Shown here in pieces: positions 3,227 to 45,797 of a stretch of DNA of 64,000 nucleotides. Where the stretch lies: positions 19,552,001 to 19,616,000 of the forward strand of contig CP086569.2 of the NCBI GenBank assembly GCA_009914755.4, read 5' to 3'. The notes beneath the pieces are model-generated. The model saw nothing but the letters and a program-made list of their open reading frames with translations. It searched no databases and had not been told where the DNA came from. The stretch's first letter is position 1. Each line of letters opens with the position of its first letter. Position numbers and translations under genes: made by a program. The stretch is from the human T2T-CHM13v2.0 reference genome, Homo sapiens.

Positions 3227-3601
<375 letters not shown>

Positions 3602-4761: not shown

Positions 4762-5379
4762 ATTTTTAGAGGTTGTTGATGCATTCTAATCAACTCACAG
4801 GTATACACAAAATCACCATGGGGATAAAAAAAGAATTAGCGTTTGCAGCAGTGTATCATCTACTAATAAAATTCAAAGAATAGATTGTCCTTCTATATTA
4901 GCTGGTGGGAGAAGGGACACAGCCACTCATGGAAGAACATATTTTCTCAATAATGACACTTTACATCTATAAAGTTGTATTAAAATTGTAATGTTTTCAA
5001 GAACATTTCTTTGATTTACATATATAGATTACAGATCTCAGAAATGAGATAACCAAGACTAATTATAATTAAAATAAGAAACTTGACTACTCTAGAAGTT
5101 ATACCTGAATTTTTTTCTTGGGAAAATGTAGTACTACTTTTTACATATACAAGATTTTATGCAATTAGCATTGCATTCTTGGTTCAAGGAAATAATTTCC
5201 TAAAGCAAAAATGTTAGATATTGAAGACTAAAATCTAATGTATTTTCAGTAGATTGTTACTTCATTTACTTCATCACTCTCTTCAAAATTACTTAACCTT
5301 CCCTATTTTTATTCTACATTTCATTAGAATTACTCTCACTAGTAATTACGTAACACTTCTGTGCCATGAATGCACCTCT

Positions 5380-5700
5380 ACCCCCATAGATCATGTTCCA
5401 CAGCTCCAGGAGAAGGGTGGGCCCCCAGTGTACAAGAGTTGCTTCATACATTTAGTCATACATCCAGCTAAACTTGGGCTATCCATGAGTGGAAATCATT
5501 TCCATAGACACAGTTCAGTTTTAAGAAAAAAGCTAACTACTGAACTTAGAGAACAGACAAGCGTGCATTTGATAACTGATGTACCAATTACAATGTGCTG
5601 TGTGGAGGATACAAAATTACACTTCCACTAATGGACTAGTTAATATTTATGTTGCTTTCTTTAACCTTAGGGAAAGCCTCCTAGTTGCAGTTAAACTATT
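5380..5700. repeat. Diverged direct repeat, copy A (pairs with 6290-6620)
   Basis: ~320 bp alignable at ~75% with 6290-6620 (ccatagat..gggtgg..catacatccagc..gctaactactgaact..gagaacagacaa..ggtacaaaatt..aatggact..cttagggaga..cctagttg.agttaaa). Same orientation, ~910 bp spacing. Confidence 0.6.
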
Positions 5701-6289
5701 GTTTTTTAACATAAGACACAGGCTAACCTTATGTCTCCCGAGAAAATACTAAGGATTGTACTTTGTCAGAAGGTACATAAAGACAACTTTATTCAGCTGT
5801 GTATTTACTTAGTATCTTATCTATCACTGAACATTGTTTAGTTATTTATCTCAGGAATTTTTGTTGTTGTTGTTCTTCCAAAGAGACTCGCTCCAATGAT
5901 CATACTTGTTGAAGCAAATTGTGGTCTTTCATAGATGAAGTTCATATGCTGTGCAGTTGGTGACTCTCTGATTCTACGGAGGCTAACTGAAGCCTAGCCT
6001 AAGTGTGAATGAGACCCTCAACTGGGGAATGATGGGGATATCAAAGAACACTCTGGGTGAGGGCAGCTGGCTGTCATATAGGGAAAGGGTTTTTAAAAAA
6101 TTACATTGAAACATTTCTCTTCTTGGCTCCACCCACTGGGAATCAATGTAAAAACATTCTGGTAAGCTAAGTTTTTTAAAGTCTAATATCCTAAAATAAG
6201 GGTCGAATTTGCCATCTGAAAACATTTTATGGAAAATACAATAGAAGTTTGCTGGAGAACAAAGCAGGCGGTGAGTGTGCAGCTGGAGT

Positions 6290-6620
6290 GGAGATAAGCT
6301 GCTGCAGAGCCTCTCTAGACAAAAGAGCCATAGATTGTCCTCCATACTTTGATGAAAGGGTGGAGCCCTGTGATACAGGAGTTGCTCCATACGGTCTGTC
6401 ATACATCCAGCGAGGTTCGAGCTATGAATGAAAGCTTTTCCCTTGAGAGAGATTAGGATTTTTTTTTAAGGCTAACTACTGAACTTTGAGAACAGACAAA
6501 TGAGCTTTGCATTATTGATGCAACGTGCTGTTCAGAGGGTACAAAATTCCAAATTCATTAATGGACTAAATATTTTTGTTACTTTTCTTCCTTAGGGAGA
6601 GATTCCTAGTTGAAGTTAAA
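6290..6620. repeat. Diverged direct repeat, copy B (pairs with 5380-5700)
   Basis: See copy A. Possibly LTR-like ends of an old element or an ancient local duplication in the TRAPPC2-like 3' region. Confidence 0.6.
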
Positions 6621-7699
6621 ACATTCCTACTCTTTCTTGTCTTAGAGAAAACCTTCTTATGTTTCTGTACAAACTAAATTTTCACTTTCATATTATGACA
6701 ACACCATGTTAGTTGTGTCACAGTATCCATGTATTGCAGAGTAGTAAAGTGTTAAGCAGAAAAATGCACCAGTGTGGTACCCACAGAAAGATGGTGTCTG
6801 GACACTCGGTAGTTTCTGGAACTCAGAACTGACAGACAGGGAATGCTGAAGTGACTGAAAGTTTGAAGAGTGCAGGGACAGCATGGGCAGAACAGAAATT
6901 GATAGTGTCTATGTCCACGCCAAAGAAGTATTCTAGGAATTTTCCAGCTATAGCAAGAGCACAAACCTCGATGTGTGCATATTATCTGGATTATTTTTGG
7001 AGCAGGAAAGTAGATAACCAACTTAGTGCTAACATAGATGTGCTCAGGGGAACCAAATTACAAAACTGATCTCACCCTATTCCTCTTGCATTAAATAACC
7101 TTCCAGAGATATCACTTACAAGATCCAAGCTTTTTCAACTTATCTTTCTTCATAATCTTCTCCTATCTATCAGCTCTCAGTTCTACACTTGTGCCCCAGT
7201 GCCCTTCTTCATGCCAGCACACCCGCAATGCTTTCCTCTGCAGCCCACGTTGGAAGTCCCACTCAATGCTCCACTTCCCTTCCAGCTCCTTCAAAGTACC
7301 AGTCACACAGAAAAATTGGCATTTAACTTTAATAATATACACATAGGAAGTGTATTACTAGTTTCTACGTCACATTCACCATCTTGAAGAAAAGGTTATT
7401 TTCAGCGTACCACTGTTGTTCAGCTGAGCCATGACTTCCCACTGTCAGTCATCCTACTGCTCTTGGCTGGCTTGCATCACAGCCCTCTGAATTATATGTT
7501 CACAGAGGCCAGAACCAACAATATTAAAAAATACATGTTTGCTGAAATTACTCTCAGATTTGTAGATGAGTATGTACCTTTTTCTGCTCCCAAAGCTCCG
7601 ACATTTAGTGTGAGTTAAGCTGAGTGCTGTATAACAGGTTAGGATATCATACAAATTTGCACACTACCAATAGAGAAAACAGGACAAAAACAGTTGTAG

Positions 7700-7996
7700 T
7701 GGGCAGCACTTTAAATAGTAGGTTGGAGGGCTGTTCGTGGGGGCTTATGCCAGTAATTGCAGGACTTTCAGAGGCCAAAGTGAGTAGATCATGAGGATAG
7801 GAGTTCCAGAACTGCCTGGGAAATGTGGTGAAACCATGTCTCTACTAAACACAAAAATTAGTCAGGCATTGTGGTGGGTACTTGTAACCCCAGCTACTTG
7901 GGAGCCTGAGGCAGAGAATTGCTTGGTCCCAGGAGGTGGAGGTTAAAGTGAGCCAAGATCACGCCACTGCACTCCAGCCTGGATGACAGAGAATAG
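7700..7996 (+). mobile_element. Alu element (diverged left arm, good right arm)
   Basis: ggagttccagaactgcctgggaaatgtggtgaaaccatgtctctactaaa...gccactgcactccagcctgg, followed directly by a microsatellite. Confidence 0.8.
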
Positions 7997-8074
<78 letters not shown>

Positions 8075-8190
8075 CTATATATACATAGATACATACATAT
8101 ACACACATTATGTTATATATTGTGTATATCTATATGGGGCACACACACACACATATATATAAACACACATACATACACACAAACACATAT
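7997..8190. repeat. Compound microsatellite (TA)n - (CA)n - (TATG/CA-rich)
   Basis: atatatatat... then cacacacacaca... seen directly. ORFs 7894-8106 and 8110-8359 are translations of this repeat. Confidence 0.95.
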
Positions 8191-8194
8191 ATTA

Positions 8195-8515
8195 GACCGA
8201 ATGCAGTGGCTCACACCTGTAATCCCAGGGGTCTGGGAGGCCAAAACTGGTGGACCACAAGGCCAAGAGTTCAATATCGGCCTGGACAATATGGTGAAAC
8301 ATTGTGTCTACTATAAAATGAAAGTTAGCCAGGTTTGGTGGCAGGCACCCATATTTTAAGCTACTTGGGAGTCTGAAGCAGGAGAATCACTTTTACTTGG
8401 GAGTCGGAGATTGCAGTGAGCTAAGATCATGACACTGCACTTCAGCCTGTGTGACAGAGTAAGACTCCATTACAAAACAAACAAGAAGGACAAAACAAAA
8501 CAAAAAAGAAGGACA
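8195..8515 (+). mobile_element. Alu element with A-rich tail
   Basis: gaccgaatgcagtggctcacacctgtaatcccagg...gattgcagtgagctaagatcatgacactgcacttcagcctg...acaaaacaaaacaaaaaag. Confidence 0.9.
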
Positions 8516-9204
8516 TCAAACTACCACAATCTTGAACAAACGTCTTTATTGAAGAAATCTAATAAATAAAGTAAAAATGATGGTAACAATTTAACACAAG
8601 GACACAAGAAAAAGCTTAGAATTATTTACTGAAAGGCAATTAAGATTGGAACTAAATCATTGAAGTTCTCATCAGTATCACAGATGGTATTACCTGCTTT
8701 TCAATGAACATTAATGAATTTATACTAAGATCTTATCCTGGGAAAAAAGAAATCATTCTCACCCTTTTCTGTTTTATTGTCTTATCCTCTCAAAGTGCTG
8801 ACATTACAAGCATGCCCAGGCATATTCCAAATGTTTTATAAAACTTCTGCCACTTCCTCCACCTTTTCTTCACCAAAAAAACAAGTATTACTTAGAATTT
8901 CAATATATAATACAAATAATACAACTGTCATAACTGAAGCACCTGTGTTGATATCAGTACGTACTCATGGTCTGGATTTTTTCAAAGATACTAAGCACTG
9001 AAGAAGTGTCTTTTTGGCTTCTTGAGTACTGCTGTGTATACTACTATACATTTTTATAGTATCTCTGCATGCATAAACATGTTAATATGAATATACATGC
9101 TATCATATTTTCTTCCCCACTGCAGAATAGTATTGTTTTGAATCTGTCTACCAAATCTACACTGACATTTATTTTTGGGTAGTTACATAAAGATAAACCT
9201 ATCT

Positions 9205-19000: not shown

Positions 19001-20937
19001 GGGAGGTGTTGTAGGTAAACTGAAAAACCGAAATTCATTTTAAGAAATAGTTAGGTATCCTCCTATGGACAAACAGGAGACCTGGAGCCTCAGTGAAAAT
19101 TCAAAATATTGCTAGCATGATGTCTTCTGTTAGAGCAGATAAACCATTGGTGTCATTCACTGTGGTATCTCTACAGCTATAAGACTGACAGAAACTGAAA
19201 AATTACTCATAATTGCTGAATGAGTAATTGCTCATAGCTGACTTCAGGGTCAATACTCAGAGAACATTGGGTGTTCCATGTCACTGTATGGCACAGAGTT
19301 CCTAGGAAGGCTTTGAGGTTGAGCTTAACCCAATCTAGATCGCATTTAAATTAACTTGAAAGAAGACAAATTACAATATTCAAAGATAATACCAAGGGCT
19401 GCTAATTTATTAGAAGGCAGAAATTGGATTCAAAGTGATCTCCATGGCACAGAGACTTAGGTGACTCTAACAAGATTGAAGTTAGGAGAATAAGAAATGA
19501 AACCCTGGGCTTAAAATCAACCTTTCAACAATAGGACAAAGGAAACCTAGATTAGATACAGTTTATCTGTATCAACACAAAAGTGTGAACTTAATGCAAG
19601 CTCAGTAGAGCTAAAAGTCTGGTAGGTTTTTCAAGTAAGCTAATGCAATTCTGTTTGGTTTTAAGAGGAAAATCAAGGAGAATGGTGATTTTCTTTTTGA
19701 GGAGATCAATAAGTCTTTCCTGTGTGTGTTAAAGGGAAGAGGTGGGCAGCACTGAGGCTAGGGAATGCTATGCAAAAAAGACAAGAGCAACTGAAGGGAC
19801 TGAGGGTGTTTAAGTGTTTTTTGGGGACCTTTTTGTGGTGGAAAGGGAGTAGGGTACAGCACAGTACTTTCATTAAATACAATAAGCTGTCTAATGGGAA
19901 AAAAAAGAGAGAGATTTAGCTCAGGATGACAAATAAATTTCCTTCATGAGTGAATCCTAATCAACTGGTAGTGACTGCCAGGAACTGGTGCTCAGAAAGA
20001 TTCCAAAACTAAGTGGGATTGGTAGGAAAAAATGCTGTGATCAATTATCTATGTCTGCTATGAATCTGGGGAAGTGTAGTGCCTACATGAGGGCCAAGTA
20101 TTTGCTGACACTGAAGTAGAGAGACTTGTTCCAAACTGTTACATAGGTTAAGCCAAGGGCTGCTCATGTGGACTCACTGAAAACTATAATCTAAGGGGTG
20201 GCTGGAACACCACCAGTGCCAGAGTGAGGGGATGCTGAATGACCATGGAAGTCACTGTTATTATTTTAAGTTTCAGGTAAATGCACAATAAAACTCATGG
20301 ATTCCAGTGCCAAAGACATCCCTTTTTTGTAACAAGCCTCTTTGCAGCCTCTATAGGAGAGATTCTAGAAAAACTGCCCGGTGCTCCTGACAGCAGTAGT
20401 TTCAGTCGTTCCATAGACCTGGTTTCATGAGTCTAAACATGGTATAGCATGGGACACGTCTATTGCAAGGAGGAGGGGCAGGTTGACCTCTATTGATAGG
20501 TCTCTAATGCAACATTTTCCTATTAATATTATAAGCAATTCTCCCATTTTTAGAAGTTGTGCTAGTGTTTAGACAAAACTTTCTCTAATTATATTTCTGT
20601 ATTCAACTGTGGGATACAAAGTGTGGGGGAGGACAGGAGTGAGAGGGTTTTCAGTCACAGATTTATTTTTTGTTTTTAAATGGTGGACTGTTGATTCTAT
20701 CTAACACATTTACAACCTATAAACCTATTTTTAGAACACTGTTTTCATCATTTCATCATTCCACTCAAAAATATGGATGTGTGTCAGGTACAGGATCATG
20801 TATTGGTATTCAAAATGGACTCCCAAATTGAAAACACATTTTTTTCTTCAGCCCTATTATTCCATCTCTGCTAGAGTTGAGTTGTTTACTTATATTTTCC
20901 CCCAAGTTTATGTTAGTTGTATCCACTTCAGGGCTAC

Positions 20938-21521
20938 TGTGGGAAAGAGAGTTTCTGGTATGCCAGATAAGTTAGTCTCCCCTGTGTGAGATGCCCATAG
21001 GGAGCCATGGGTGACCTCTGAGGAGAAAAGTCTCCTTATTGCCTTCACGTCTTTATGTCCCAAGACCATAACAGTTCAGCGGCATGCCACAGGTTGCTTG
21101 GGGAACTAATACTCCCTTGAACAGTGGAGTACAGTCAAACATCTTGGCTTCTCCTGAAAACCACTCCCACCCATTTCAGATCTTCAGTTAAAGATCTTAA
21201 GTAGTTTAGAAACACACCTTTGCTCAAGGAAATTCACAGAAACTACCAGTGCTATACATCTTATTGGATGACTCACACATTCTCCTTCACCAATCAATCC
21301 TTTTCCTCATGTCTTCCTACCCCTCGCATCTTTCCTAAGAACAAAGAACTTGTAAACAAATAAGTTGGGAGGAGGCCGAGAGCTTGAGGTCACGAGCAAG
21401 CCTCCCAGGCTCCAGTCCCATCGATCCACCTTTTAAGCTATGATTCTGTCTCTTTCTAATTCCTTTGTCTCCTCTAGACTCAGGATATTTGCCAGATGGT
21501 GTGGGGATGGTTTCCCTATCA
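20938..21521 (+). repeat. Provirus 1, 5' LTR
   Basis: Alignable to 26257-26843 at roughly 85-88%. Starts TGTGGG, ends ...tttccctatca. Confidence 0.85.
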
Positions 21522-21523
21522 TC

Positions 21524-21541
21524 TGGCACCTAACACGGGGC
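21524..21541 (+). promoter_or_regulatory. Primer-binding site, tRNA-Lys-like (tggcacctaacacggggc)
   Basis: Lies 2 nt after the LTR end. It resembles the Lys1,2 PBS TGGCGCCCAACGTGGGGC (14/18 identical). Confidence 0.6.
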
Positions 21542-21690
21542 TCCCTCTAATCTCTACAAATAATCCAGTGAAGGAATGCCAGAATGTGGAAAGTGGAGGA
21601 GACTGACAAAGGAAGCCTGAGTACATTTTCACTTCAAGCTCTACAGGTAAGGAGGGAGCCCAGAGAAATCCAGAGTAACCTCAGGAAAAT

Positions 21691-23400
21691 GTGGGTCAGG
21701 CTGAGACTAAGTTTGCTAATTACTTAAGCCCAGTACGGCAGTTATTGCACTATGGAGGGTTAATTGTGAGTACCCGAAATCTCATGTCTTTGTTCCATCT
21801 CATAGAAAAGTGTTCTCCTTGGTTCCCAGAATATGGAACCATGAATGTAAAAGATTCAGACAAGGTTGGATCAGACTTGAGCACAACTAGAGGGCCATGA
21901 TATTCCCTTCCCCACTTGATCTGTGTGGTCAACAATTAAAACAGCACTGGAGCCTTTCCACACTGAGGAGCAGGAGAAGTTTCAGGATGACATAGGAAAG
22001 TTTAATAATCAGGAGTCTGATGATCAGCAAGTTGAACCATCACAGTCCAGTTTTAAAAAGGGGGATAAAAGGGAAGGTATATATGCTAACCTCCAAAAAC
22101 TTATGAAAGAAACTGTTCCACCTAATGCAGAAACAGGGACACCTACTGCACCTTTAGGGTAAGTTTGGAATGGCCACGCCCACCTCAGCCTTCTGAATGT
22201 TTGGAACAGGACCCTGAGCCGTGGCTTGCCACTCCCATTGTTGCACGCCCCACCATTAACTATGGCGAAGGGAAATTCAGGCTCGCCCAACAGCCAATTA
22301 CAGTGAGGGAGTGATCCAGGTTGGTCTGTCTGTTAATTATGGTAGAGGAATGCTGCCTGCCAGCCCAAATACAAATTATGGCATAGGGATGATCCAGGCA
22401 TCCATTTGCCAGGCATGAGAAATGGAGGATTTGGATGCATGGCAGTTTCCGGTAATTATTTTGCCAGCTGAGGAGCCCAGAGAACATGCTGAAGCACGCT
22501 GAGAGCCATTTCCTTTTAAAATATTGAAAGACTTAAAGTAAGCAATTGGACAATATGGGCCAGATTCTCCTCATGTTCATTCCTTGTTAAAATCTGTGGC
22601 TTATAACCGGTGTTTAATACCTATGGATTGGGAATCATTAGCCCAGTTCACCCTGTCCTTGTCTGAATTTCTCCAATTTAAAACTTGGTGGACTGGTGAA
22701 GAAACAAATCAGGCATGCAGAAATGCTCAACACCAACCTCCCGTTAATATCACATCTGATCAATTGCTTGGAATTGGAGAGACATGGGGAACTATAAATC
22801 AACAGATGGTAATGGGTCGATGAGGCTGTTGATCAGCTCAGAACTATATCCCTAAGAGCCTGGAAAAAAAATTCATGATCCTGGTACCACTTATCCTTCT
22901 TTTAACTCAGTTTGACAGGGTCCAAGGCAGTCTTATCCAGATATTATCTCCCATTTGCAAGATACTGCTCAAAAGGGTATTTCAGATTCTCATGGCAGGA
23001 AACTGCTCGTTCAGCTGCTTGCTTATGAAAATGCTAATACAGAATGTCAGGCAGCACTTAGATCTATTAAGGGAAAGGCAGATCTAAATGAGGAAATATC
23101 TGCAAATGAATGCATTAAAGCCTGTGATGGCATTGGGGGGCACTTACATAAGGCAAGCCTCCTTGTCCAGACAATTGCTGGGCTAAGAGTAACAAAAAAC
23201 ACACAAATGTTCCCTGGATCTTGGTATAATTTTGGACAGATAGGCCTATACAAAAAGAGAGTGTACAAAGAGCCAAATAAGACAAAACTCAGTACCAGGC
23301 CCTGATTCAAAATGGGGCATTCCCAATTTAGAATGGGACATCCCCAACTCCAAATGGAGTGTTCCCAGCCCAGTCTATCCCTGTACAAATGTATAGCAAT
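21691..23400 (+). pseudogene. gag: Provirus 1 gag (MA-CA-NC), decayed by frameshifts and stops
   Basis: The start MGQAETKFANYLSPVRQLL..LFHLIEKCSPWFPEYGT matches the HERV-K gag start MGQTKSK..LFQIIEQFCPWFPEQGT. The CA region reads FKTWW..NAQHQPPVNITSDQLLGIGETWGT and ..AYENANTECQAALRSIKGK..CDGIGG. The C-terminal QNGAFPI..NCPPPQLKV matches the HERV-K gag tail QTGAFPIQPF..NNCPPPQAAV. Confidence 0.85.
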
Positions 23401-24235
23401 TGTCCCCCTCCACAGCTAAAAGTGGGGCAGTAGATTTATGCTGTACAAAAGCTGTATCCCTCCTTCCTGGGGAGCCTCCTAGGAAGGTCCCAATGGGAGA
23501 TTACAGTCCATTGCCAAACGGCACGGTGGGACTTATACAGGGAAGGTCCAGCTTAAAACTAAAGGGAATTCAAGTACATACTGAAGTAGTGGACTCTGAT
23601 TGCCAGGGAGAAATTCAAATAGTTATCTCCCCCACTGTTCCCTGGAGTGCTAATCCAGGTGACAGAATAGCTCAACTGTTGCTTTTACTGTATGTTAAGC
23701 TAGGAGAAAGCTCAGAAAAAAGAACAGGAGGATTTGGAAGCACAAATACAGCAGGCAAGGCTGCCTATTGGGTAAATCAAGTCTCTGACAACAGACCTAT
23801 TTTTACGGTCACTATGCAAGGAAAACAATTTGAGGGTCTGGCTGACACAGGAGCAGATGTGTCGATAATAGTTCTTTATCAATGGGTGAAAACTGGCTCA
23901 AACAAAAGGCCCCAGTGGATCTTGTTGGGGTCAGGACTGCTTCAGAAGTTTTCCAGAGTACTATTATGGTACCATGTCTTGGTCCAGAAGAACAGGAAGG
24001 CACAATACAACCTCTAATTATACACACTCCTGTTAACTTATTGGGGAGAGGTCTGCTTCAACAATGGGGCACAGAAATTTCAATCCCTCCTCAACGGTAT
24101 GGTCAAGCTAGTCAAAAAATAATGTCAAACATGGGCTATGTTCACATAAAAGGCCTAGAAAAGGAGAAGGGCATTACTGAATCCATACACGTTACTGTAA
24201 AAAGTGACCGAAAAGGATTAGGTTACCATTTTTAG
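23400..24235 (+). pseudogene. pro: Provirus 1 pro region: dUTPase, aspartic protease, G-patch
   Basis: ORF 23400-24017 has the dUTPase-like segment ..TVGLIQGRSSLKLKGIQVHTEVVDSDCQGEIQIVIS..GDRIAQLLLL.. and the protease motif LADTGADVSII. ORF 23882-24235 ends in the G-patch [31 protein letters not shown]. Confidence 0.85.
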
Positions 24236-24239
24236 GGGC

Positions 24240-24960
24240 AGTCACTGTTGAGCCTCCAAGCCCTATTCCCTTAAAATGGAAGGCCCAAATTCCTGTTTGG
24301 GTCAAACAGCGCCTGTTTTTTCAGGAATAAAATGGGGACCATACAGGAATTAGTCAAAGAGCAATTAAACAAAGGAAATATTGAGCCCACATTTTCTCCA
24401 CGTAATTTGCCAGTGTTTGTAATAAAGAAAAAATCCGGCAGATGGCGCATGCTAACCGACTTATGAGCAGTCAGTGCAGTCATCCAGCCAATGAGGGTCC
24501 TGAAGCCAGGGCTTCCATCCCCAACCATGATTCCTAGAGTGTCTGTTAATAATTACAGATTTGAAGGATTGCTTTTTAAATATTCCTCTAGTGGAGTCTG
24601 ATTTTGAGAAATTTGCTTTTACTACTCATGCTATGAACAACAGGAACCAGCGGCCAGATATCATTGGAAAGTCCTGTCACAGGATATGTTGAATAGTCCT
24701 ATTATTGGTAAAATTTCTGTGAGGGAGGCTATTCAGCCTGTGAGAGATCAGTTTCCAGGTTCGTATATCATTTATTGTACAGATGATATACTGTGTGCGG
24801 CCGAAAATCGAGACCGACTTATCCATTGTTATTTATATATACAGGAGGTGATATATACAGGAGGTGGTAACCAATGCTGGATTGCTCATAGCACCAGATA
24901 AAATTCAAATGACTACTCCTTTCCAATATTTGGGAATGCAGGTTCAGGAAAGGGCAATTA
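24240..24960 (+). pseudogene. pol: Provirus 1 pol fragment (N-terminal reverse transcriptase only). The rest of pol is deleted
   Basis: RT-like ..[41 protein letters not shown].. and ..SYIIYCTDDILCAAENRDRL... The sequence then passes directly into the env C-terminal region. Confidence 0.7.
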
Positions 24961-25139
24961 AACCCCAAAAGGTTCAATTTTGAAAAGACTCTCTGGAAAC
25001 TTTAAATGATTTTCAAGAAGTATTAGGGGATGTCAATTGGATTCTACCTACTTTGGGAATCCCTACCTATACTCTGTCTAATCTGTTCTCTATTTTAAGA
25101 GGAGACCCTGCTCTCAATAGTAAATGAGAACTGACTCCT

Positions 25140-26245
25140 GAGGCTGACAAAGATGATCGATCCAATTATAAGTCCAGAACACCCAGAATTGTGGAAATTA
25201 ATGATGGCTCAAACCCCATTTCGGGTTTGGAAAGGATAATATAAAACAGACCCATAGTACAAAATTTTGATTTGTTGCAGCCATGACCTGTAATCGGATG
25301 GTCCCACTGCAGAGTTGTGTTAAATCTTTTATATTGGAAGTGAGAAAAATTAATATCCTACCTGACTCTCAAACCATATCATGCCTTAACTGTCACCTTT
25401 TTACCTGCATTATTTCTACCTTTAATAAAGATAACAGCATTTTTACTGGTTAGGGCCCAAGAAGGAGTTTGGATACTTGTTTCCCTCAATAGACCTTGGA
25501 AGGCCTCTCCCTCCATACATATTACCACCATTTAGTAGAAGTACTAAAAAGAATACTTAATAGATCAAGCAGATTCATATTTACTTTAATAGCTGTGCTC
25601 ATGGGCCTTACAGTTGTCACAGCTACTGCTGCTGTTGCTGCTGGTGTTGCCTCCCAGACTTCTATTCCACCTGCGGGCTTTCTGGCAGAAAAATACTTCT
25701 TAGCTTTGGAATTCCCAAAGCCAAATACATCAAAAATTGGCAAATTAAGTTAATAATCTCCATCAAACAGTAATTTGGATGGGACATCAGATTATGAGTT
25801 TGGAGCACAGAATTCAAATGCAATGTGAATGGAATATTTCTGATTTTTTTTATTACTCCTGGCTCTTATAATGCCACCGAACACCACTGGGACTTGATTA
25901 TATGTCACCTACAAGGAAAAGAAGATAATTTAACATTAGATATTGCTAAACTGAAAAAAAAAAAACCCAAAAACTATTTGAGGCATCTCAGGCTCATCTC
26001 AGCCTGTTGCCTGGAGCTGATATTCTTGCTGGAGACGTTGATGGCCTTTCTAATATCAACCACTTAAGGTGGATTAAAATCATAGGTGGATCAATAGTTG
26101 CAAATTTTATTTTGGTTTGTGTCTGTTTATGCTGTTTGTTTTTAGTTTACAGATGTAGATGGCACCTTGGGAGAGAAGCCAGACACTGTGAACTAGCTAT
26201 GATAGCAATGGTGGTTATTAATAAAAAAAAAATTAATAGAGACCA
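25140..26245 (+). pseudogene. env: Provirus 1 env remnant (SU C-terminus, furin site RSSR, fusion peptide, TM), degraded
   Basis: ..[32 protein letters not shown].. is the SU/TM cleavage site plus fusion peptide. The nucleotides are co-linear with provirus 2 env at 50680-51170. It is followed by the polypurine tract aaaagggggaca just before the 3' LTR. Confidence 0.8.
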
Positions 26246-26256
26246 AAAGGGGGACA

Positions 26257-26843
26257 TGTGGGAAAGAGAGTTTCTGGGATGCCAGATGAGCTGGTCTCCC
26301 CTATGTGAGACACCCATGGGGAGCCATGGACAGCCTCTGAGGAGAAAAGTCTCCTTATTGCCTTCATGTCCTTATGCCCCCTGAGCACAACAGCTCAGCA
26401 GCATGCCACAAGTTGCTTGGGGAAATAACACTCCCTTGAAGCAGTGGAGTATAATCAGAGATCTTGGCTTCTCCTGAAACCCACTCCCACCCATTTCAGT
26501 CCCAACAAGTTAAAGATCTTAAGTAGTTTAGACACATGCCTTTGCTCAAGGAAATTCACAGAATCCACCACTGCTATACATATTATTGAATGACTCACAA
26601 CTTCTCCTTCACTGATTAATACTTTCCCTCATGCTTCCTATGCCTCCCATCTGCCCTAAGAACAAAGAACTTGCAAACCAATAAATTAGGTTGAGATCGA
26701 GAGCTCAGGGCTGTGAGCAAGCCTCCAATGGCTCTGGTCCCCTGGACCTGCCTTTTAAACTCTTATTTTGTCTCTTTCTAATTCCTTTGTCTCCGCTGAA
26801 CTCGGGATAGCCTCCGGGTGAGGTGGGGCTGGTTTCTCCAACA
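26257..26843 (+). repeat. Provirus 1, 3' LTR
   Basis: Begins tgtgggaaagagagtttctgggatgcc immediately after the PPT and ends ..ggtttctccaaca, followed by the TSD gctac. Confidence 0.85.
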
Positions 26844-27749
26844 GCTACTATTATTTTTCTCATCATTACTGGAATGTTCTCCCTGATTCTGCCTGCAACA
26901 CCTCCTTATCCTTTAAAATCCAACTAGGTCTATCCTCCTTCTCAACTATTTCCAACAAAAACCTGTAGGTTCTCCACTTTCTAAGAAGCCCTATCACTCT
27001 TACTGCCTCTTAAAGAGTTTTTCACAGACACAGATTAAAACTCATTGTACACTTCTACAATGCTGTGTACAAAGCTGACACTGATCCAATCTGTCCTCAC
27101 AGGACTTAGATACTTTATCAGGCTTACTTCCCAGCACACAACACTGGACTCAGGGTAGATGCCTCACTGCCCCCAAGAAGGTTCTGAATTTTTGTTTGTT
27201 TTTTATTCCTTTGCTCATTTTCCCCTTCCAACAATGGTCTCCTTTTTGCCCACCACCCAAATCCTACCCAAGGCCTTGATGGAGTCACATATATTCCAAG
27301 AGATGATCTAGATCACTTCCATCTTCCACCACCTCCCCTTTACACTCCTTACTTAGTTTACCATGTTATTTTAATTCCTGCTCAATTCCCTGGCTGTAAT
27401 ATTTTCATTATCGATTCTGAGAGATTTGGTTTTTCTTCATTCTAATTATATTTAAGCATCATGAGGAAATGCTCACCTTCCCTCACAACACACAAGGGGT
27501 GGTACTCAAAAACGTTTACTTCTGTGGGTCTCAATCCAGATCCACCTTGCTTCCAAGAAAACATACGGCAATGTTTGGAGACATTTTTGGTTGTCACCAT
27601 TGGGGTCGAAGATGCTACCGACAAAATAGCGACCAAGGATACAGCTAAATCTACAATGCACACGACAGCCTCCCTAAAGAATCTTCTGGCTCCAAAAGGC
27701 AAAAGTGGCGCCGTTAAAATACCACGGATTAGCGGAATGACCCAGTAAA

Positions 27750-28520
27750 CCATGAAAGCAAAGCCCCCCAGAGGGCAGACACTTGCAGGTGGAAGTGCTG
27801 GCTGCATAATGAGCCGGTCAGGACCTCGCAGGTTACCCGGCTACCCCTGGGAGGGGTGGAGATACAGAACCAAACTCTTCCCTCACATAGGGCCTGAAAA
27901 GTCCCACAGGGACTCAAAACAGCTGCTCCCGACTCTTTCCATTCCCTACCTGCAGCGAGAGGCTGACAACGTATCAGTCCCGCCGCAGAGACTGAGCTCA
28001 GCAGCTTTACCGTTAATGCCCGCCCCAGGACGCACCACCCTGCCCCCCCCCACCCCCGCGCAGTTCTCCCAATACCCTGCAGACGTGCACTTGCGAGATG
28101 TGGGTGGAGCTTCCGGCGTGTGCTCAGCAACCAAGTACATTTGCCTTGTCTCTGCAGATCTGGAAGGCTGTACTTAGTAGGTCTCCAGGAGGGGCACGAT
28201 GGGATGTGAGGGTAATCAACTTCTAGTCCTGCCTCGCCTACTTCCATCTCTAGTCTCCGCGTCCTCGCCCTCCAGCAGCCTTTCAGCTGTGGCTGGAAGA
28301 GAGCAAGCTCACGTGTTTGGTAGAAAACCTAGTTGAAAGTGCAAGGCAGATAGCGTTCAGCACTCTTGTTCATCCCTCAGAACAGAGGCAGGGCTCTGAG
28401 AGCAGCAATGAGCCCTCATGTTGGTTCTGCAGCCCAGGTTGGGCACTCAACTTGGGACACAGGGGGGCAAGCGAGGCAGCTCGGGAGGAAGCTCAGGCTT
28501 GATGGTGGCTCAGGAAGACA
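27750..28520. promoter_or_regulatory. GC-rich, CpG-containing bidirectional promoter region between the TRAPPC2-like gene (minus) and the OFD1-like gene (plus)
   Basis: A local jump in G+C and CpG (..cccgccgcagagactgagctc..cccgccccaggacgcaccaccctgccccccccacccccgcgcag..ccggcgtgtgctc..ctccgcgtcctcgccc..). It sits exactly where OFD1 and TRAPPC2 share a head-to-head CpG promoter on the X. The long ORFs on both strands here (27442-27807, 27729-28247, 27752-28177) look like GC-content artefacts. Confidence 0.6.
28502..28513 (+). pseudogene. Candidate OFD1-like exon 1 start codon (ATG GTG GCT CAG = MVAQ, against OFD1 MMAQ). The downstream GT donor is not evident
   Basis: gcttgATGGTGGCTCAGgaagac lies 170 bp upstream of the OFD1-like exon 2 acceptor. 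OFD1 starts MMAQ then S with a very short exon 1. Here the expected GT after CAG is absent. Confidence 0.45.
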
Positions 28521-28685
28521 CACCTGTCCCTCCTTGGGGACAGGCAGAAATGAAGTTTGGTTGATGTCCCCTCAAACCCCTTTCCTGTTAGGCCTCTTAG
28601 GGCTTCCCAGGAGGCCACTGATCTGTTTTCAGTCATTCATGTTCTCTCTGCCCCCCAGGTAACCTGTAGCCATTTTGTCTTCTAG

Positions 28686-28784
28686 TCCAACATGCTTCCT
28701 CTGTCTGACGTGTTCAGTCAATGTGAGCTACGCAAAAAGCTACACAAGACCTTGAAGAGTCGGGGTGTACTGGACACATTCAAG
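28686..28784 (+). pseudogene. OFD1-like exon 2 (the N-terminal part of the LisH / FOP-dimerisation region of the centriolar protein OFD1)
   Basis: Acceptor ttgtcttctag|, then [33 protein letters not shown], then donor |gtatgg. OFD1 reads [33 protein letters not shown]. Confidence 0.85.
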
Positions 28785-37389: not shown

Positions 37390-40300
37390 ATCTCTCCCCG
37401 TCTGCAGAAGTCACCTTAACTGATGTTAGAGGGTTTGGGGCGATGACTCTTTCTGGATGCTTCATGCTAAAAGGGCACAGCAAATGGGGAACAGCAGGGA
37501 GGGTTCCTTCTGGGGTTCACCTAGGGGTCCTCAGAAGAGCAGTGTGTCCATGTGTGGTTCAGTTTGCAGCACTATGTAGGTTTGATGGCTTCGACAGGAG
37601 AAAAAAAAATTGAGTTACAGTTTTGAGTATACAAAATTCAAATATTAGCACAAGACATATAAGCAAGAGAGGGCTTATTACAGGGATTAGCCAATTTTAT
37701 AAAGAATACTGGAATTCATTAAAGAGGGACTGTAGCTACCAGGGGCTGAAAGTTGCATTTTTCCTGAGCTTGTCAATAATTTTAATTTGATTTTTAATTG
37801 CCCGTAGATTTTTCTCTGCTTGAGTAGAGGTGTTTATCTAAGATACAGAATCTCCCTTTTGGGATCTATGAAGTTATTTACTTTTATTTTCCCAAACAAA
37901 GAAAGCTCTGAGTTATGGGCATTGCACTCAATTTTATTACCTGGCAGAATTTGCAGGATAATGTCCCAGAAATAGATCCAGATATTTACACTACCTATCC
38001 TTTTTTTTTTTTTCCTCCCAAGCTGTAGGAGATTACCACTTGACTCTCAGGATTAAGCACGCTTAGTCTAAAAGGTAGACAAAAGGCTTACAATCTATTA
38101 AGTGGACTAAGATTTAATGACAAGTGTATGATAAGCTTTGGAGCACAATTTCTTCAGGCCTCATTTTTTGTTTAAAAAAAGGCAAATTATAGAACCCTGT
38201 GTCTTTTTTGTAGAATAAACTTTAGTCTTATACTTGGACTGATAATTGCATTAAGTGCAGCTAGAATGGTTATTTTTTATATCAGCCTATTGGATTAGCT
38301 TTGATGAAACTCTGCTCTGGAAAGAATTTGAGATAAAACTTTTAAAGCTGAGACTAGCCATGGTTCCTATTCTCAAATGCCTGTAATTTGGTAAGTTGGG
38401 TGATCCTCTGTTCTTGAGGTCCCAGATAAATTTGGAGCTCCAAGGTCTTGTAGAAAGTGCAATTCTTTACTGACCACAGGTGAGGAACACTGTGCAGGGA
38501 CTGGCTTGACAAGGTATGAGGCCAGTTCTCCCTAATGGGCTTTTATCAGCTCTGAGTGCCAAGCTTGATTCCTTAAAAGGAAACACATTCTTTCGGTCAA
38601 TGCCTTGGTCAATTAACCAGTTTTTCCAACTGTGTTCTTTAAAAAAGTAAATGATTCTTATTGCACTCATGGAGACAACAGTCTTGCCATAAGTTAAGAG
38701 TACTTACAGTTTAAAACAAACATGGTCCAAATTTTGTTGACAGGAGAATGTCTTACTGAATTTGCAAGGGCTGCAAATACTTCAAAGTAAGTTTTCTTGA
38801 CTCTGAAAATCAAAACAAGGATCATTAATATTCCAAACTAAGTTAAAAATGCTGCTTTAACTTTCTGAGCGCAGTGCAGTTAGTTAACTCTTCTTTCGCT
38901 TGATATTTGTGAACATGTCAGACCTTTATGAGTGTCGTACATTCTGTCTTTATCCCAACGTTACAGTCATCAAAACTATTAAAAACCTGCATTTGAGAAC
39001 ACCTATTAAAGTCTTTAATATAGCATGATTAAAAACCCTCTTTTCAGAAGGAACCCTAAACAAGACCATTGTCTGCAAATGACAAAATTTCCAGGATAGT
39101 TACAGTTAAAACTATGACTGAGAGAGAAGTTTATTTGTCTCCATGGTTTATAAGAACTTTTCCCTTAATTATGATTGAGAGCATATACTCAGACCTTAGA
39201 ACTTAGAAATGCCACAAAATTTTGGAAAATCTATTAGTATTATTCACCAAATTATAACTTAAAGAAAATTGGACATCATTTTGGCAATCTCTTGTGACTA
39301 AATGTGTCTGTATATGTCTTTTCTGAATGTTTTGGAAGCCCTCTAAACGACTCAGAAAGCCAGGCATTAGGAAGGACAATTTTGAAACTTGAATTATGCT
39401 TTTAGGATGCCTGTTACATTTTAGAGGTTTGGAACACTCGATTTTATGAAATAGCAATCCAGATTGCTATAAATTACTTGTTTTGCCGAAAGGATGGCTC
39501 AAAAGGCAAAAACCATTTTTATTAGTTTTTATTATTACATGACACGTCATTTGGCTCTGAGATCCTGTTCAAAGCCAAATTTTACCCTTGTATTAATTTG
39601 TTAATGTCAACCCCAATTTGATTAAATAAAACCTTATGGATCATTTCACTTAATCTCAACCAATTTGACCATGACGTGAAATATTTACAAACCTTTTAAA
39701 ACGCTTTTACCAAAGGGCAGATTAGTTTCTTAAGAACTCCTTGGTGTGCTTTTATTTCAGTACTCAAGTTATTTAAAAAATACAGTAACTTTTTGAATTT
39801 AATGTTCACTGTTGACATTTAGCAACTTTCTTTTTCAGTGAAAACCCTGGTTAATAAGCAACTTTACTATATACAAGGTGTGGATCCTAGCACCCAGACA
39901 GAAGTGCAGATAAAGTGTGAGTTTTCAGCTTCTATCTCCATGTATCCAAGGTTTTACAAACCTGTAAAGCAGGCAGGAAAAAAACCTTGGAATGTTTAGC
40001 AAACCTGGTGTCCAAATTGTATGATTCAGATGACCTATTTTCATTCTCACAACACTTACATTTTCCCAATAATCCTTAAGACTACATTTCTTAAACTCAC
40101 AGGAACTAAAAAAAAAATTTGATTTAAGTGCTTACTTCTCTTTAAGACAATTAATTAGAGCTTGTTTTTATAGATATTACACACACCACATATATAACAA
40201 CACAAACAGAAGATTCAGAGTTATTTTGTGTGCCAGTTTCTTAATTGGATTATTGGTTTCAAGTTGTAGCCCTTGGAGAAACAGTGTCATTAGCATACAT

Positions 40301-40825
40301 TTTTAGGGTCTAGTAAGTAGATGCAGCTGAAGGCAATTAGCCCATCCCCCTTGGTACTCTTTTTCTTCGTGGAGGAGTGGGGGGTCAGGATGTTTCTCTA
40401 TGTTTTAGGCAGACAAGAGCATGCTTCACTAATTTATAACTACTACTAGCCATTTCATACAGTGCATTTTCTACCTAGTTATTACACACCAAAGCTCTCC
40501 CATAATGTGAAGTAACTTGATATCAGCAAGAGCCACAAAGGGTAAATAACACAATACATAAGAATACAGAGGCTTTGCTTTTCAGAGGAAACTATCTGCT
40601 TTCAATTTTGGGGGTTTCATGAGGAAAACATGGGTGTTTTGTTTTGCTATCTGTGTGTGTGTGTGTGTTTCCCCATATGGGGATTTTGGTACCTACTCTG
40701 TTTTTCCCCAGGAGTCTTATGCTATCAGAAGGTACCTTATTAGGACCTTTCAGGCATGCAATAAGAGTGGTAAGACAGAAAATGATGGAGAAAAATAATT
40801 CAGTCGACTGAGAACAAAAGAGCCT

Positions 40826-41134
40826 TTTTTTTCAATTTTTTTTTTTTTTTTTTTAAACAGATTCTCACTGTTTTGCCCAGGCTGGAGTGCAGTGGTGATA
40901 TCTCGACCCACTGCAAGCCCCGCCTCCTGGGTTCACACCATTCTCCTGCCACAACCTCCTGAGTAGCTGGGACTACAGGCACCTGCCACCACGCCCAGCT
41001 AATTTTTTGTATTTTTAGTAGAGACAGGATTTCACCATGTTAGCCAGTATGGTCTCGATCTCCTGACCTCATGATTTGCCCACCTCGGCCTCCCAAAGTG
41101 CTGGGATTACAGGCATGAGCCACTGCGCCCGGCC
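40826..41134 (-). mobile_element. Alu element (minus) present only in duplication unit 1
   Basis: Poly-T, then gattctcactgttttgcccaggctggagtgcagtggtgatatctcg...caaagtgctgggattacaggcatgagccactgcgcccggcc. The orthologous position in unit 2 (~55890) has no Alu. Confidence 0.9.
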
Positions 41135-42895
41135 CCCCAAAATTTTTTAAATATATCAACAACTAGAACACCTACTTTTAATTAACCTGAACACGTTTTA
41201 AGAAAATTCTTTAAAAAATTTTTTATTACTTGACTTTAGCCCTGCCAAGCAGTTAAGAATTTTGGCTTTTGAACTTTACAAAATATAATCTCATAGATAA
41301 AACCAACTCATGTTATGACTTAAAAGCTAGTGTCCAAGGTATTTTCAGAGGAATAATAGTCAGCTTTTGAATCTTTCATTGCAAAATTTTGATGGAGACA
41401 GTGAAAGAGCATTGACCTAAACAAATCTGTTTCATTTGTTGCCCTCAAGCTGTCTTTGCCAATCCCTGGGCTTAGGCTGAGCCAACTTTAGGAGGAGCCT
41501 GGTTTACAGTCTACAGTCTAAAACAAAGATGATAACAGCTGCTTCCCAAGATATCCTTTCCTCTTGACTGGAGCCCAGAATGAGAAGCTAACCACAAGGT
41601 TAGGGGCCATGGCTTAGGTGTCAGGGAGGTGGAGGCTACAAGGTTTTGACCTTCCCTAAACTGCTTTCAAGATCAGTGCTTAAGATATTGTATAAACCCT
41701 GCCCTTGGTGGATCAGCTGGGACCACCCAGATTGAAAAACTGGCTTATCGGATTTTGTGGCCCTCACCCATGAACTGACTTAGCAGAAGAAGAAAGCCAC
41801 CTTTGTAAAATGGCAGAGACTAAAACCAATTATTGCCACATAGTTACAGGTTATGTTCCCAAGGACATGGAACAAGATGTAGGACTGTAACCCAGTTTGT
41901 TACTGACCATTTAGTTGCTCTGGCTTGCACAGAAGGCTTATGGGGTCTTGGGCCTTCACCCTGACTTAAGATACCCTTTTGTTGACAGAAAGATACAGAA
42001 GGACATGCAAAGCACACAAATAGTCTACAACTTAAGATCAACCTCATAAATCTTTTTTCGTTATTTATAAATTTACCTAGAATATAAACAATAATCCTTA
42101 TTTTCTTTTTTACCCATTTACTAAGGGAGAGAGAAGCCAAAGACCAACTGGTAAGAAATTTTTACCCTTTTGCCAGCATATCAGGCTTCTACATTTCCTT
42201 TCTTCTAGCTCAACTCTAAGCCAAGCATTTTAAGGTTTGGAAATTAACTTTTCCAAGATTGGATGAACAGTATGAAAGATATAGAAGCCATATTAAATCA
42301 CAAAAAAAAAAAAAATGAAAAACACTATAGAAAGAAGTTCCAGTTAAAATTTTCAAGAGGTATTGCCCCTTTTCCTATAGGGAATGGTATTTCCCCTATT
42401 TCTTTACCTAGGGAAAGTTTCTCTTTTCCCTTTTAGCCTACTATAGAAGACATGTTGCTCATCTCCACAATTTTCTTTTGCTTGCAGAGCTGCCTCTTTT
42501 AGCTGAAGTTAGACTTTGGCTTAGGAGCAGAAAAACATTCCTTCAAAAGAGATGAAATACCTAAGTTAAATTTTGGAAAGCGCCTATGTGTCTATCAGGA
42601 TCATCAGAAATTTGGCATGACCTCCCTTTATTTTCCAAAGTTCCTCCAATGAGAAGAGAGAACTTGAAGGGGCCCCAAATAAGGGAATCCTCAGATGGTT
42701 CCCCTGAAACTTGCTTCTCTAATTTTGGGTAATTTTTCTCTTTGGGACTGCCTGATAGGATTGCTAAATGCGCTGGGTTATTCTGCAACACTTACAAAGC
42801 TGTAGTAAGAAGGCCATGCCATTGTGCAAAAGTAAATAAACTATTTCTTCAAAGTTTCAGGGTTGAAGGAATCCAAGCACTTTAAAATACACTCA

Positions 42896-45685: not shown

Positions 45686-45797
45686 AAACATACACGATGT
45701 ATAAAATGATACTGTCATAAAACGAAGATTGTGTAAACAGTGTCTGAGCAGTGGCTGAAAGCTCTGAGGAAAAAAAACTGAATGCATTTTTTTTTAG

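What the first reader, a model, noticed from the sequence alone, without database searches (positions are those of the whole stretch)
20938..26843. Old HERV-K-type provirus 1 with precise boundaries: 5-bp TSD GCTAC, Lys-like PBS, PPT, dUTPase-protease-G-patch, and an internal pol-to-env deletion
The LTRs (20938-21521 and 26257-26843) begin TGTGGG and end ..CA. They are flanked by gctac on both sides. A tRNA-Lys-like PBS follows the 5' LTR and a purine tract (aaaagggggaca) precedes the 3' LTR. gag begins MGQAETKFANYLS..CSPWFPEYGT, the HERV-K signature. pro encodes dUTPase, the DTGADVSII protease and a G-patch. pol stops after the N-terminal RT and the sequence resumes in the env SU C-terminus. 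LTR-LTR divergence is roughly 12%, implying an insertion tens of millions of years old. LTR length (~585 bp) and sequence do not match the HML-2 LTR5 family, so this is an older HML group that I cannot assign by eye.
Basis: partly seen in the sequence, partly recalled or inferred. Interest (0 to 1): 0.55.

Follow-up and report, generated by a model that had tools for sequence, protein, structure and literature searches.

The report
Dead HERV-K (HML-9) provirus on Y
This is an ordinary, long-dead endogenous retrovirus of the known HERV-K(HML-9)/HERVK14C-LTR14C family on the human Y chromosome, with its ends intact and about 2.5 kb missing from the middle; it is a routine genomic fossil and not a new kind of element.

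Summary
The two LTRs (20938-21521 and 26257-26843, TG...CA) are flanked by an exact 5-bp duplication GCTAC. A degenerate Lys-type PBS and a PPT are present. The interior reads gag (MA, CA), dUTPase, protease, G-patch, RT through the thumb, then the C-terminal part of env SU plus TM.

Corrections:
- LTR-LTR divergence is 16.8% (K2P 0.194), not about 12%.
- The gag start codon is mutated to GTG.
- A second deletion of about 134 bp removes the second NC zinc knuckle.

- The env remnant scores far best against the HML9 Env consensus.
- The whole element is collinear at 85-88% identity with the full-length HML-9 provirus at 16p12.3. It lacks that reference's nt 4336-6889.

A second, independently inserted HML-9 provirus (47907-52345) matches the published Yq11.222 copy (chrY:18622534-18626952) in every string tested, so the window is human Y. 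Provirus 1 is not in that published catalogue, which is a minor curation gap.

The nominal age of 42-48 Myr is probably inflated by the fast Y-chromosome clock; 25-45 Myr is more realistic. No ORF exceeds 205 aa. The kind is already known and interest is low.

The parts
20933..20937 (+). 5' target-site duplication GCTAC
   Evidence: Read directly. Identical to 26844-26848.
20938..21521 (+). 5' LTR (LTR14C type, 584 bp, TGTGGG...ATCA)
   Evidence: Direct repeat with 26257-26843. About 85% identical to the 16p12.3 HML-9 5' LTR as part of the 85.5% block. The AATAAA signal has mutated.
21524..21541 (+). Primer-binding site TGGCACCTAACACGGGGC (degenerate tRNA-Lys type)
   Evidence: It matches the HML-9 consensus PBS of Jia 2022 Table S5 at 15/18 positions, and all differences are transitions.
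21691..23350 (+). gag remnant (MA/p10, CA/p24 N and C, first NC knuckle). The start codon is mutated to GTG. The 3' limit is approximate.
   Evidence: Pfam Gag_p10 3.5e-12, Gag_p24 5.9e-27, Gag_p24_C 1.1e-18. Collinear with HML-9 ref 1-2359 at 85.5%.
23292..23298 (+). Junction of a deletion of about 134 bp (HML-9 ref 2360-2493) that removes the second NC zinc knuckle
   Evidence: There is no zf-CCHC Pfam hit.
23398..24235 (+). pro remnant: dUTPase (about 23398-23745), aspartic protease with DTGADVSII (about 23787-24080), G-patch (about 24110-24230), stop TAG at 24233-24235
   Evidence: Pfam dUTPase 8.7e-15, RVP 1.4e-6 and 1.8e-8, G-patch 9e-7. The best PDB hit is entry group 2d4l, which I recall to be M-PMV dUTPase, at 8e-18. 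The longest ORF in the element is 23400-24017 (205 aa).
24211..25147 (+). pol remnant: RT fingers/palm and thumb only, about 35% of pol. The start is approximate.
   Evidence: Pfam RVT_1 and RVT_thumb 6.6e-24, ending at about 25152. Collinear with HML-9 ref 2494-4335 at 88.2%.
25143..25153 (+). pol/env deletion junction (HML-9 ref 4336-6889, 2554 bp missing) with imperfect microhomology CAAAGA/CAAAAA
25148..25573 (+). env SU C-terminal remnant, resuming at about residue 294 of the HML9a Env consensus (..KMIDPIISPEHPELW..) and running up to the RSSR cleavage-site remnant
   Evidence: tblastn against the Vargiu 2016 Env consensuses. Sequence and translation read directly.
25574..26255 (+). env TM remnant (fusion peptide FIFTLIAV.., [23 protein letters not shown] motif, membrane anchor)
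   Evidence: HML9a 543 bits against 386 for the next best, HML10a. Weak Pfam GP41.
26245..26254 (+). Polypurine tract AAAAGGGGGA
26257..26843 (+). 3' LTR (LTR14C type, 587 bp). AATAAA is retained at 26680.
26844..26848 (+). 3' target-site duplication GCTAC

Best explanation
Window 20938-26843 is one germline integration of a HERV-K(HML-9) betaretrovirus (Repbase/Dfam HERVK14C-int flanked by LTR14C) on the human Y chromosome at Yq11.222.

Shown:
- Two LTRs are bounded by a 5-bp target-site duplication.
- A tRNA-Lys-derived PBS and a PPT are in the correct places.
- The interior is collinear with a full-length HML-9 provirus, apart from two deletions: about 134 bp in gag NC, and 2554 bp running from just after the RT thumb to the middle of env SU.

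Inferred:
- The LTRs were identical when made by reverse transcription, and integrase created the GCTAC duplication.
- The element then decayed neutrally. The start codon is lost, all frames carry many stops and frameshifts, and the longest ORF is 205 aa.
- The large deletion has an imperfect 6-nt microhomology at its junction. It arose either by RT template switching before integration or by microhomology-mediated deletion afterwards. The data cannot tell which.

The element has no coding capacity. Any present-day activity could only be LTR-driven transcription or regulation.

The nominal age from LTR divergence is 42-48 Myr. The Y-linked copies evolve about twice as fast as the autosomal HML-9 copy, so 25-45 Myr is the realistic range.
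For: - LTR pair and TSD.
- Domain order by Pfam.
- Betaretroviral affinity: dUTPase and PR best match PDB entries 2d4l and 1nso/3sqf, which I recall to be M-PMV, at 8e-18 against about 1e-8 for the next dUTPases (1f7d, 1dut), which I recall to be lentiviral.
- HML-9 assignment:
  - The env remnant scores 543 bits and 59.7% identity against HML9a, compared with 386 bits for HML10a and 77 bits or less for HML6b, with no reported HML5a hit for provirus 1.
  - The HML9a consensus C-terminus '..kkgdmwer' reads into the same LTR start.
  - The element is collinear at 85.5, 88.2 and 85.9% identity with the 16p12.3 HML-9 provirus over ref 1-2359, 2494-4335 and 6890-8571.
  - LTR14C is 587 bp in the reference, against 584 and 587 bp here.
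  - The PBS is 3 transitions from the HML-9 consensus.
- Locus: the neighbouring provirus matches the published Yq11.222 HML-9 record in the 18-nt PBS and in three 40-mers.
- Independent insertion: the TSDs differ, the flanks are unrelated and the deletions differ.
- Dating: and Table 4 of PMC9178832.
Against: - Provirus 1 is not among the 23 proviruses or 47 solo LTRs of the dedicated human HML-9 catalogue. Eight 40-mers are absent and no table row has matching coordinates or anatomy.
- No RepeatMasker/Dfam run was possible, so the family name rests on comparison with published HML-9 sequences and consensuses, not on the Dfam models themselves.
- The TSD is 5 bp. The neighbouring HML-9 copy has 6 bp (GTCTTC/GCCTTC), and 6 bp is usual for betaretroviruses (my own knowledge).
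- No nucleotide references for HML-1 or HML-10 were available. They are excluded on Env protein scores only.
Confidence: 0.95

Rival explanations
1. The provirus belongs to one of the two oldest HML groups, HML-5 (HERVK22/LTR22) or HML-6 (HERVK3/LTR3), as its high LTR divergence might suggest.
For: LTR divergence of 17-19% falls in the 8-23% range that Vargiu 2016 gives for HML5 and HML6, the oldest groups.
Against: The env remnant gives no reported hit to the HML5a consensus and only 77 bits at 21% identity to HML6b. For provirus 2 the figures are 68 bits (25%) for HML5a and 63 bits (23%) for HML6b. The TM motif is of the LANQIN type, not LLLQ... (HML5) or LKNKLN/LQNKIN (HML6). The whole element aligns at 85-88% with an HML-9 provirus.
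Confidence: 0.01
2. It is a member of a sister LTR14-type group, HML-1 (HERVK14/LTR14A,B) or HML-10 (HERVKC4/LTR14), or a mosaic of such a group with HML-9.
For: These groups have related env genes and LTR names. Vargiu 2016 stresses that mosaic forms are common (title).
Against: HML9a Env beats HML10a (543 against 386 bits) and HML1a (352) for provirus 1, and by 921 against 495 and 453 for provirus 2. Identity to the HML-9 16p12.3 copy is uniform across LTR-gag, pro-RT and env-LTR (85.5, 88.2, 85.9%), so there is no sign of a mosaic breakpoint. LTR length matches the 587 bp of LTR14C.
Confidence: 0.03
3. Proviruses 1 and 2 are two copies of a single insertion, made by a segmental duplication on the Y chromosome, not by separate integrations.
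For: They belong to the same family, have the same orientation and lie 21 kb apart. The window contains other local duplications, and Y-linked HERV-K14C copies are reported to occur in duplicated pairs.
Against: The TSDs differ: GCTAC against GTCTTC/GCCTTC. The flanks share only Alu-type repeats. The internal deletions have different junctions. Each provirus's own two LTRs are closer to each other than to most LTRs of the other provirus.
Confidence: 0.01
4. On timing: provirus 1 really is about 45 Myr old. That would make it, with provirus 2, part of an early HML-9 wave at or before the catarrhine/platyrrhine split, and its divergence would not be inflated by Y linkage.
For: K2P of 0.194 gives 48.5 Myr with the formula used for the family. 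The branch ratio of the Y copies to 16p12.3 is 1.9-2.6. That reaches or exceeds the factor of about 2 that male-biased mutation alone can give (my own knowledge), so some real age excess is likely.
Against: All Y-linked HML-9 proviruses in the catalogue have higher LTR divergence (0.141-0.194) than the autosomal ones (0.070-0.110). Each copy's terminal branch is about half its own LTR-LTR distance, which implies a nearly identical progenitor for Y and autosomal copies. HML-9 is reported to have entered after the Old World/New World monkey split about 39 Mya (Flockerzi 2005, as cited in PMC11209481).
Confidence: 0.25

Closest known systems
HERV-K(HML-9) = HERVK14C-int / LTR14C, e.g. the full-length provirus at 16p12.3, chr16:19393581-19402152 (Jia et al. 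2022, PMC9178832)
   Same: Same LTR type and length (about 587 bp), the same TGTGGGAAAGAG... LTR start, and the same PBS family. gag-pro-pol-env is collinear at 85-88% nucleotide identity, and the Env consensus is the best match.
   Different: Provirus 1 lacks ref 2360-2493 and ref 4336-6889, is about twice as diverged, is Y-linked, and is not listed in that catalogue.
HML-9 provirus Yq11.222, chrY:18622534-18626952 (= provirus 2 of this window, 47907-52345)
   Same: Same family, chromosome and orientation. LTR-LTR divergence is similar: 0.194 in the paper, and p 0.179 / K2P 0.208 here, against K2P 0.194 for provirus 1.
   Different: It is an independent insertion with a 6-bp TSD. Its deletion runs from gag CA to env SU residue ~66 through a 9-15-nt microhomology. 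It keeps about 630 bp of env SU that provirus 1 lacks.
The recurrent pro-to-pol deleted HML-9 variant (6p12.3, 19q13.2 and several Y copies; pro ~64%, pol ~6%, env ~99%)
   Same: An internally deleted HML-9 provirus of about 5-6 kb. One Y copy is 5905 bp long, nearly the same length as provirus 1.
   Different: The deletion is different. Provirus 1 keeps all of pro and about 35% of pol and loses about 45% of env. Its deletion is private, not the shared variant.
HERV-K(HML-2) / LTR5
   Same: Betaretrovirus-like gene order with dUTPase and G-patch in pro, a Lys-type PBS, and the gag CSPWFPE motif.
   Different: Env matches the HML2a consensus at only about 46% identity and 373 bits. Provirus 1 is far older and fully degenerate.

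Membership tests
HERV-K(HML-9) (HERVK14C-int / LTR14C) | LTRs of the LTR14C type, about 587 bp, TG...CA | tested here: met
   LTRs are 584 and 587 bp, against 587 bp in the Dfam reference quoted in PMC9178832. Identity to the 16p12.3 LTRs is 81-85%. The first 21 nt are identical to several catalogued LTR14C copies.
HERV-K(HML-9) (HERVK14C-int / LTR14C) | Internal sequence homologous and collinear with HERVK14C | tested here: met
   85.5, 88.2 and 85.9% identity over ref 1-2359, 2494-4335 and 6890-8571 of the 16p12.3 provirus.
HERV-K(HML-9) (HERVK14C-int / LTR14C) | Env closest to the HML9 consensus among HML1-10 | tested here: met
   HML9a scores 543 bits at 59.7% identity. The next best is HML10a at 386 bits.
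HERV-K(HML-9) (HERVK14C-int / LTR14C) | PBS of the HML-9 type (consensus tggcgcccaacgcggggc, derived from tRNA-Lys) | tested here: met
   15/18 positions match, and the three differences are all transitions, two at CpG sites. By the paper's strict criterion it would be typed '-', as are most catalogued copies.
HERV-K(HML-9) (HERVK14C-int / LTR14C) | RepeatMasker/Dfam model assignment to LTR14C / HERVK14C-int | not testable with these tools
   No Dfam or RepeatMasker is available. Published HML-9 sequences served as a proxy.
Betaretrovirus-like (class II) ERV / HERV-K supergroup | Gag_p10-type matrix, dUTPase upstream of the protease in pro, and a G-patch at the protease C-terminus | tested here: met
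   Pfam hits in that order. The best PDB matches are 2d4l for the dUTPase part and 1nso/3sqf for the protease part, which I recall to be M-PMV entries.
Betaretrovirus-like (class II) ERV / HERV-K supergroup | 6-bp target-site duplication | tested here: inconclusive
   Provirus 1 has exactly 5 bp (GCTAC). A 6-bp GCTACT with loss of one T at the 5' junction cannot be excluded. Provirus 2 has 6 bp with one mismatch.
HERV-K(HML-2) / LTR5 | LTR5-type LTR and HML-2 env | tested here: not met
   The LTR aligns to LTR14C copies. HML2a Env scores 373 bits against 543 for HML9a.
HERV-K(HML-5) and HERV-K(HML-6) | Group-specific TM motif (LLLQ... or LKNKLN/LQNKIN) and env similarity | tested here: not met
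   The motif here is [23 protein letters not shown]. Env identity is only about 21-25%.

The most novel reading that the evidence does not exclude
Provirus 1 is a two-LTR HML-9 provirus missing from the only dedicated human HML-9 catalogue; it would be the 24th provirus and the 8th on Y. Together with its neighbour it may represent the earliest HML-9 germline integrations, at a nominal 42-48 Myr. That would be at or before the catarrhine/platyrrhine split and would push back the family's entry date.
Probability: 0.15. Interest if true: 0.25.

Novelty: already known. Interest (0 to 1): 0.1.

Why it matters
It matters little. The finding adds one correctly delimited, dated and classified copy to a well-described ERV family whose enrichment on the Y chromosome is already published.

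Two practical points follow:
1. The BLAT-based human HML-9 catalogue (PMC9178832) misses a 5.9-kb two-LTR provirus about 21 kb from one it does list, so its counts are lower bounds.
2. LTR-divergence ages of Y-linked proviruses computed with the autosomal rate are systematically too old. Here the Y copies carry about 2-2.6 times the change of an autosomal copy descended from nearly the same progenitor.

Tried and rejected
- Rfam scan of the whole window found nothing.
- Lavie 2004 on HML-5 is not held in the library.
- The exact PBS strings were not found in the Vargiu 2016 supplements. Table S1 there is truncated, so this is uninformative.
- Forward-strand 40-mers against Jia 2022 Dataset S1 gave no hits at first. 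The file stores minus-strand loci as reverse complements. Reverse-complemented provirus 2 strings then matched and provirus 1 strings still did not.
- HML-5/HML-6 assignment, suggested by the high divergence, was rejected on env.
- A segmental-duplication origin for the two proviruses was rejected on TSDs, flanks and junctions.
- A splicing origin for the deletions was considered and rejected. The missing segments do not begin with GT, and the junctions show microhomology.
- The shared pro-pol deletion variant of HML-9 was rejected, because pro and RT are present.
- ORFs in the GC-rich block downstream of provirus 1 have no Pfam match.


Full report
**1. The observation**

Reading 20800-27000 and the repeat finder confirm a direct-repeat pair at exactly the stated coordinates. 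The 5' LTR is 20938-21521 (584 bp) and the 3' LTR is 26257-26843 (587 bp). Both start TGTGGG and end CA. The pentamer GCTAC lies immediately outside both, at 20933-20937 and 26844-26848. Two nucleotides after the 5' LTR comes TGGCACCTAACACGGGGC (21524-21541). The purine run AAAAGGGGGA (26245-26254) precedes the 3' LTR.

Pairwise and four-way alignments give 98 differences in 583 aligned sites: p = 0.168, K2P = 0.194, and 0.182 without CpG sites.

**2. Coding content**

Three-frame translation and Pfam give the following, in order:
- Gag_p10 (3.5e-12), Gag_p24 (5.9e-27), Gag_p24_C (1.1e-18)
- dUTPase (8.7e-15), RVP (two fragments), G-patch (9e-7)
- RVT_1, RVT_thumb (6.6e-24, ending at about nt 25152), and a weak GP41

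There is no RNase H, no integrase and no N-terminal SU. The hits are spread over all three frames, and the longest ORF is 205 aa (23400-24017, with a TTG start).

The gag reading VGQAETKFANYLS starts at GTG 21691. The HML-9 reference has ATG there, so the start codon is mutated, and the ATG at 21689 is out of frame.

The 205-aa dUTPase-protease ORF best matches PDB entry group 2d4l at 8e-18, and its protease part matches 1nso and 3sqf. From my own knowledge these are Mason-Pfizer monkey virus proteins. The next dUTPase entries, 1f7d and 1dut, score about 1e-8; I recall these to be lentiviral. This is independent support for betaretroviral affinity.

**3. Context**

BLAST of the element against the window revealed a second provirus of the same family at 47907-52345, plus a 140-bp LTR fragment near 62.1 kb. 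At least 15 Alus show that the window is primate.

The two proviruses are independent insertions:
- Provirus 2 has its own TSD, GTCTTC/GCCTTC.
- The flanks share only Alu-type repeats.
- The internal deletions differ.

Provirus 2 carries about 630 bp of env SU immediately upstream of the point where provirus 1's env resumes. This pins provirus 1's pol/env junction to 25143-25153.

**4. Family assignment**

Vargiu et al. 2016 (PMC4724089) supply Env consensus sequences for HML1-10. Their supplement notes that HML5 and HML6 have aberrant TM motifs (LLLQ..., LKNKLN) while the other groups have LANQIN. Provirus 1 reads [23 protein letters not shown].

tblastn of all the consensuses gave these results:

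| Provirus | HML9a | HML10a | HML1a | HML5a / HML6b |
|---|---|---|---|---|
| 1 | 543 bits, 59.7% identity | 386 bits | 352 bits | 77 bits or less |
| 2 | 921 bits, 71.7% identity | 495 bits | 453 bits | 68 bits or less |

The HML9a consensus even ends '...kkgdmwer', which is the read-through into the TGTGGGAAAGAG start of the LTR seen here.

Jia et al. 2022 (PMC9178832) give the HML-9 reference as LTR14C-HERVK14C-LTR14C, 8608 bp long with 587-bp LTRs. From their Dataset S1 I took the near-full-length 16p12.3 provirus and aligned it. Provirus 1 is collinear with it in three blocks:
- ref 1-2359 at 85.5% identity
- ref 2494-4335 at 88.2%
- ref 6890-8571 at 85.9%

The uniform identity argues against a mosaic. 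The missing pieces are ref 2360-2493 (the second NC zinc knuckle) and ref 4336-6889 (2554 bp: RT connection, RNase H, integrase and the first ~293 residues of Env).

The large junction shows the imperfect microhomology CAAAGA/CAAAAA. Provirus 2's junction shows 9-15 nt of homology, AGGCAGATC.... Neither deleted segment begins with GT, so splicing is not the cause.

The PBS differs from the HML-9 consensus tggcgcccaacgcggggc by three transitions. From my own knowledge, that consensus is one base from the tRNA-Lys(CUU) complement TGGCGCCCAACGTGGGGC.

**5. Locus**

Provirus 2's PBS tggcacacaacacagtgc is identical to the entry for the Yq11.222 provirus in Jia's Table S5. Three reverse-complemented internal 40-mers from provirus 2 occur exactly in the Dataset S1 record, at the position expected for chrY:18622534-18626952. 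Its anatomy also agrees with the table: gag about 75%, no pro or pol, env about 85%, 4.4 kb. The window is therefore human Yq11.222.

By extrapolation, provirus 1 lies at about chrY:18,648,035-18,653,940 on the minus strand. This is an inference.

Provirus 1 is not in the catalogue. No Table 1 row is near those coordinates or has its anatomy. Eight of its 40-mers, tried in the relevant orientations, are absent from Datasets S1 and S2.

HERV-K14C enrichment on the Y chromosome is already published: 146 copies genome-wide with 29 on Y (Sin et al. 2010, as summarised in PMC9816444). Seven of the 23 catalogued proviruses are on Y.

**6. Age**

With the family paper's formula T = D/0.2/2, provirus 1 is 42 Myr old from p and 48.5 Myr from K2P. 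That equals the published value for provirus 2, the oldest in the catalogue.

Three points argue that this is too old:
- All Y-linked copies in that table are more diverged (0.141-0.194) than the autosomal ones (0.070-0.110).
- A three-taxon comparison on shared columns gives branch lengths of 0.092-0.101 for provirus 1, 0.084-0.096 for provirus 2, and 0.035-0.050 for 16p12.3.
- Each branch is about half that copy's own LTR-LTR distance. Almost all the divergence is therefore post-integration, and the progenitors were nearly identical.

The Y copies have accumulated 1.9-2.6 times more change. Male-biased mutation, which is established knowledge, makes the Y clock roughly 1.5-2 times the autosomal one. 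That gives 24-32 Myr. Because the ratio reaches or exceeds 2, some real extra age is plausible.

HML-9 is reported to post-date the Old World/New World monkey split at about 39 Mya (Flockerzi 2005, as cited in PMC11209481). This also argues that 48 Myr is an overestimate. I give 25-45 Myr.

**7. Mechanism and verdict**

This is a standard retroviral integration relic. Reverse transcription was primed at a Lys-type PBS and at the PPT and produced identical LTRs. Integrase produced the TSD. Neutral decay and microhomology-associated deletions then removed all coding capacity. Whether the 2.5-kb deletion arose before integration (RT template switch) or after it is unresolved; it is private to this copy.

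At the family level, HERVK14C is a known target of KAP1 repression (PMC6172469 abstract). Nothing here indicates a function specific to this copy.

It is an ordinary member of a known family. Interest is low. The only mildly new points are its absence from the published catalogue and the bias that the Y clock introduces into its dating.

Noticed in passing
window 47907-52345 (+): A second HML-9 provirus, which matches the published Yq11.222 copy chrY:18622534-18626952 in every string tested. Its TSD is GTCTTC/GCCTTC. Its own deletion runs from gag CA (ref 2157) to env SU (ref 6218) through a 9-15-nt microhomology. LTR-LTR K2P is 0.208.
   Followed up: yes
window 49617-50129 (+): Provirus 2 carries a 170-aa ATG-initiated ORF that fuses gag CA (Pfam Gag_p24 and Gag_p24_C) across the deletion junction to the start of env SU (..QNYTYWVYIPFP..). 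It is probably a chance survival. Expression was not tested.
   Followed up: partly
window 52222-54061 and 62052-63886: The last ~125 bp of provirus 2's 3' LTR plus 1.7 kb of its downstream flank are duplicated about 9.8 kb further on, at 92.5% identity. This is a post-integration local duplication with a breakpoint inside the LTR, and it explains the lone LTR14C 3'-end fragment at 62043-62184.
   Followed up: partly
window 39125-46928 and 54221-61703: A block of about 7.6 kb is repeated in direct orientation at 84-85.5% identity. The first copy is interrupted by an AluY-like insertion at 40857-41134. It could be an older part of the same duplication or two copies of one long interspersed repeat. 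This was not resolved.
   Followed up: no
window ~27600-28750: A GC-rich block (50-59% GC against 39% for the window) lies about 0.8 kb downstream of provirus 1. It has overlapping ORFs of 172 and 141 aa on opposite strands, and neither has a Pfam match. It could be a CpG-island-like sequence or another repeat.
   Followed up: partly
literature: PMC9178832 Tables 1 and 3 and Datasets S1/S2: The published human HML-9 catalogue (23 proviruses, 47 solo LTRs) does not contain provirus 1, although it lists the neighbour 21 kb away. Its Dataset S1 stores minus-strand loci as reverse complements padded with dashes.
   Followed up: yes
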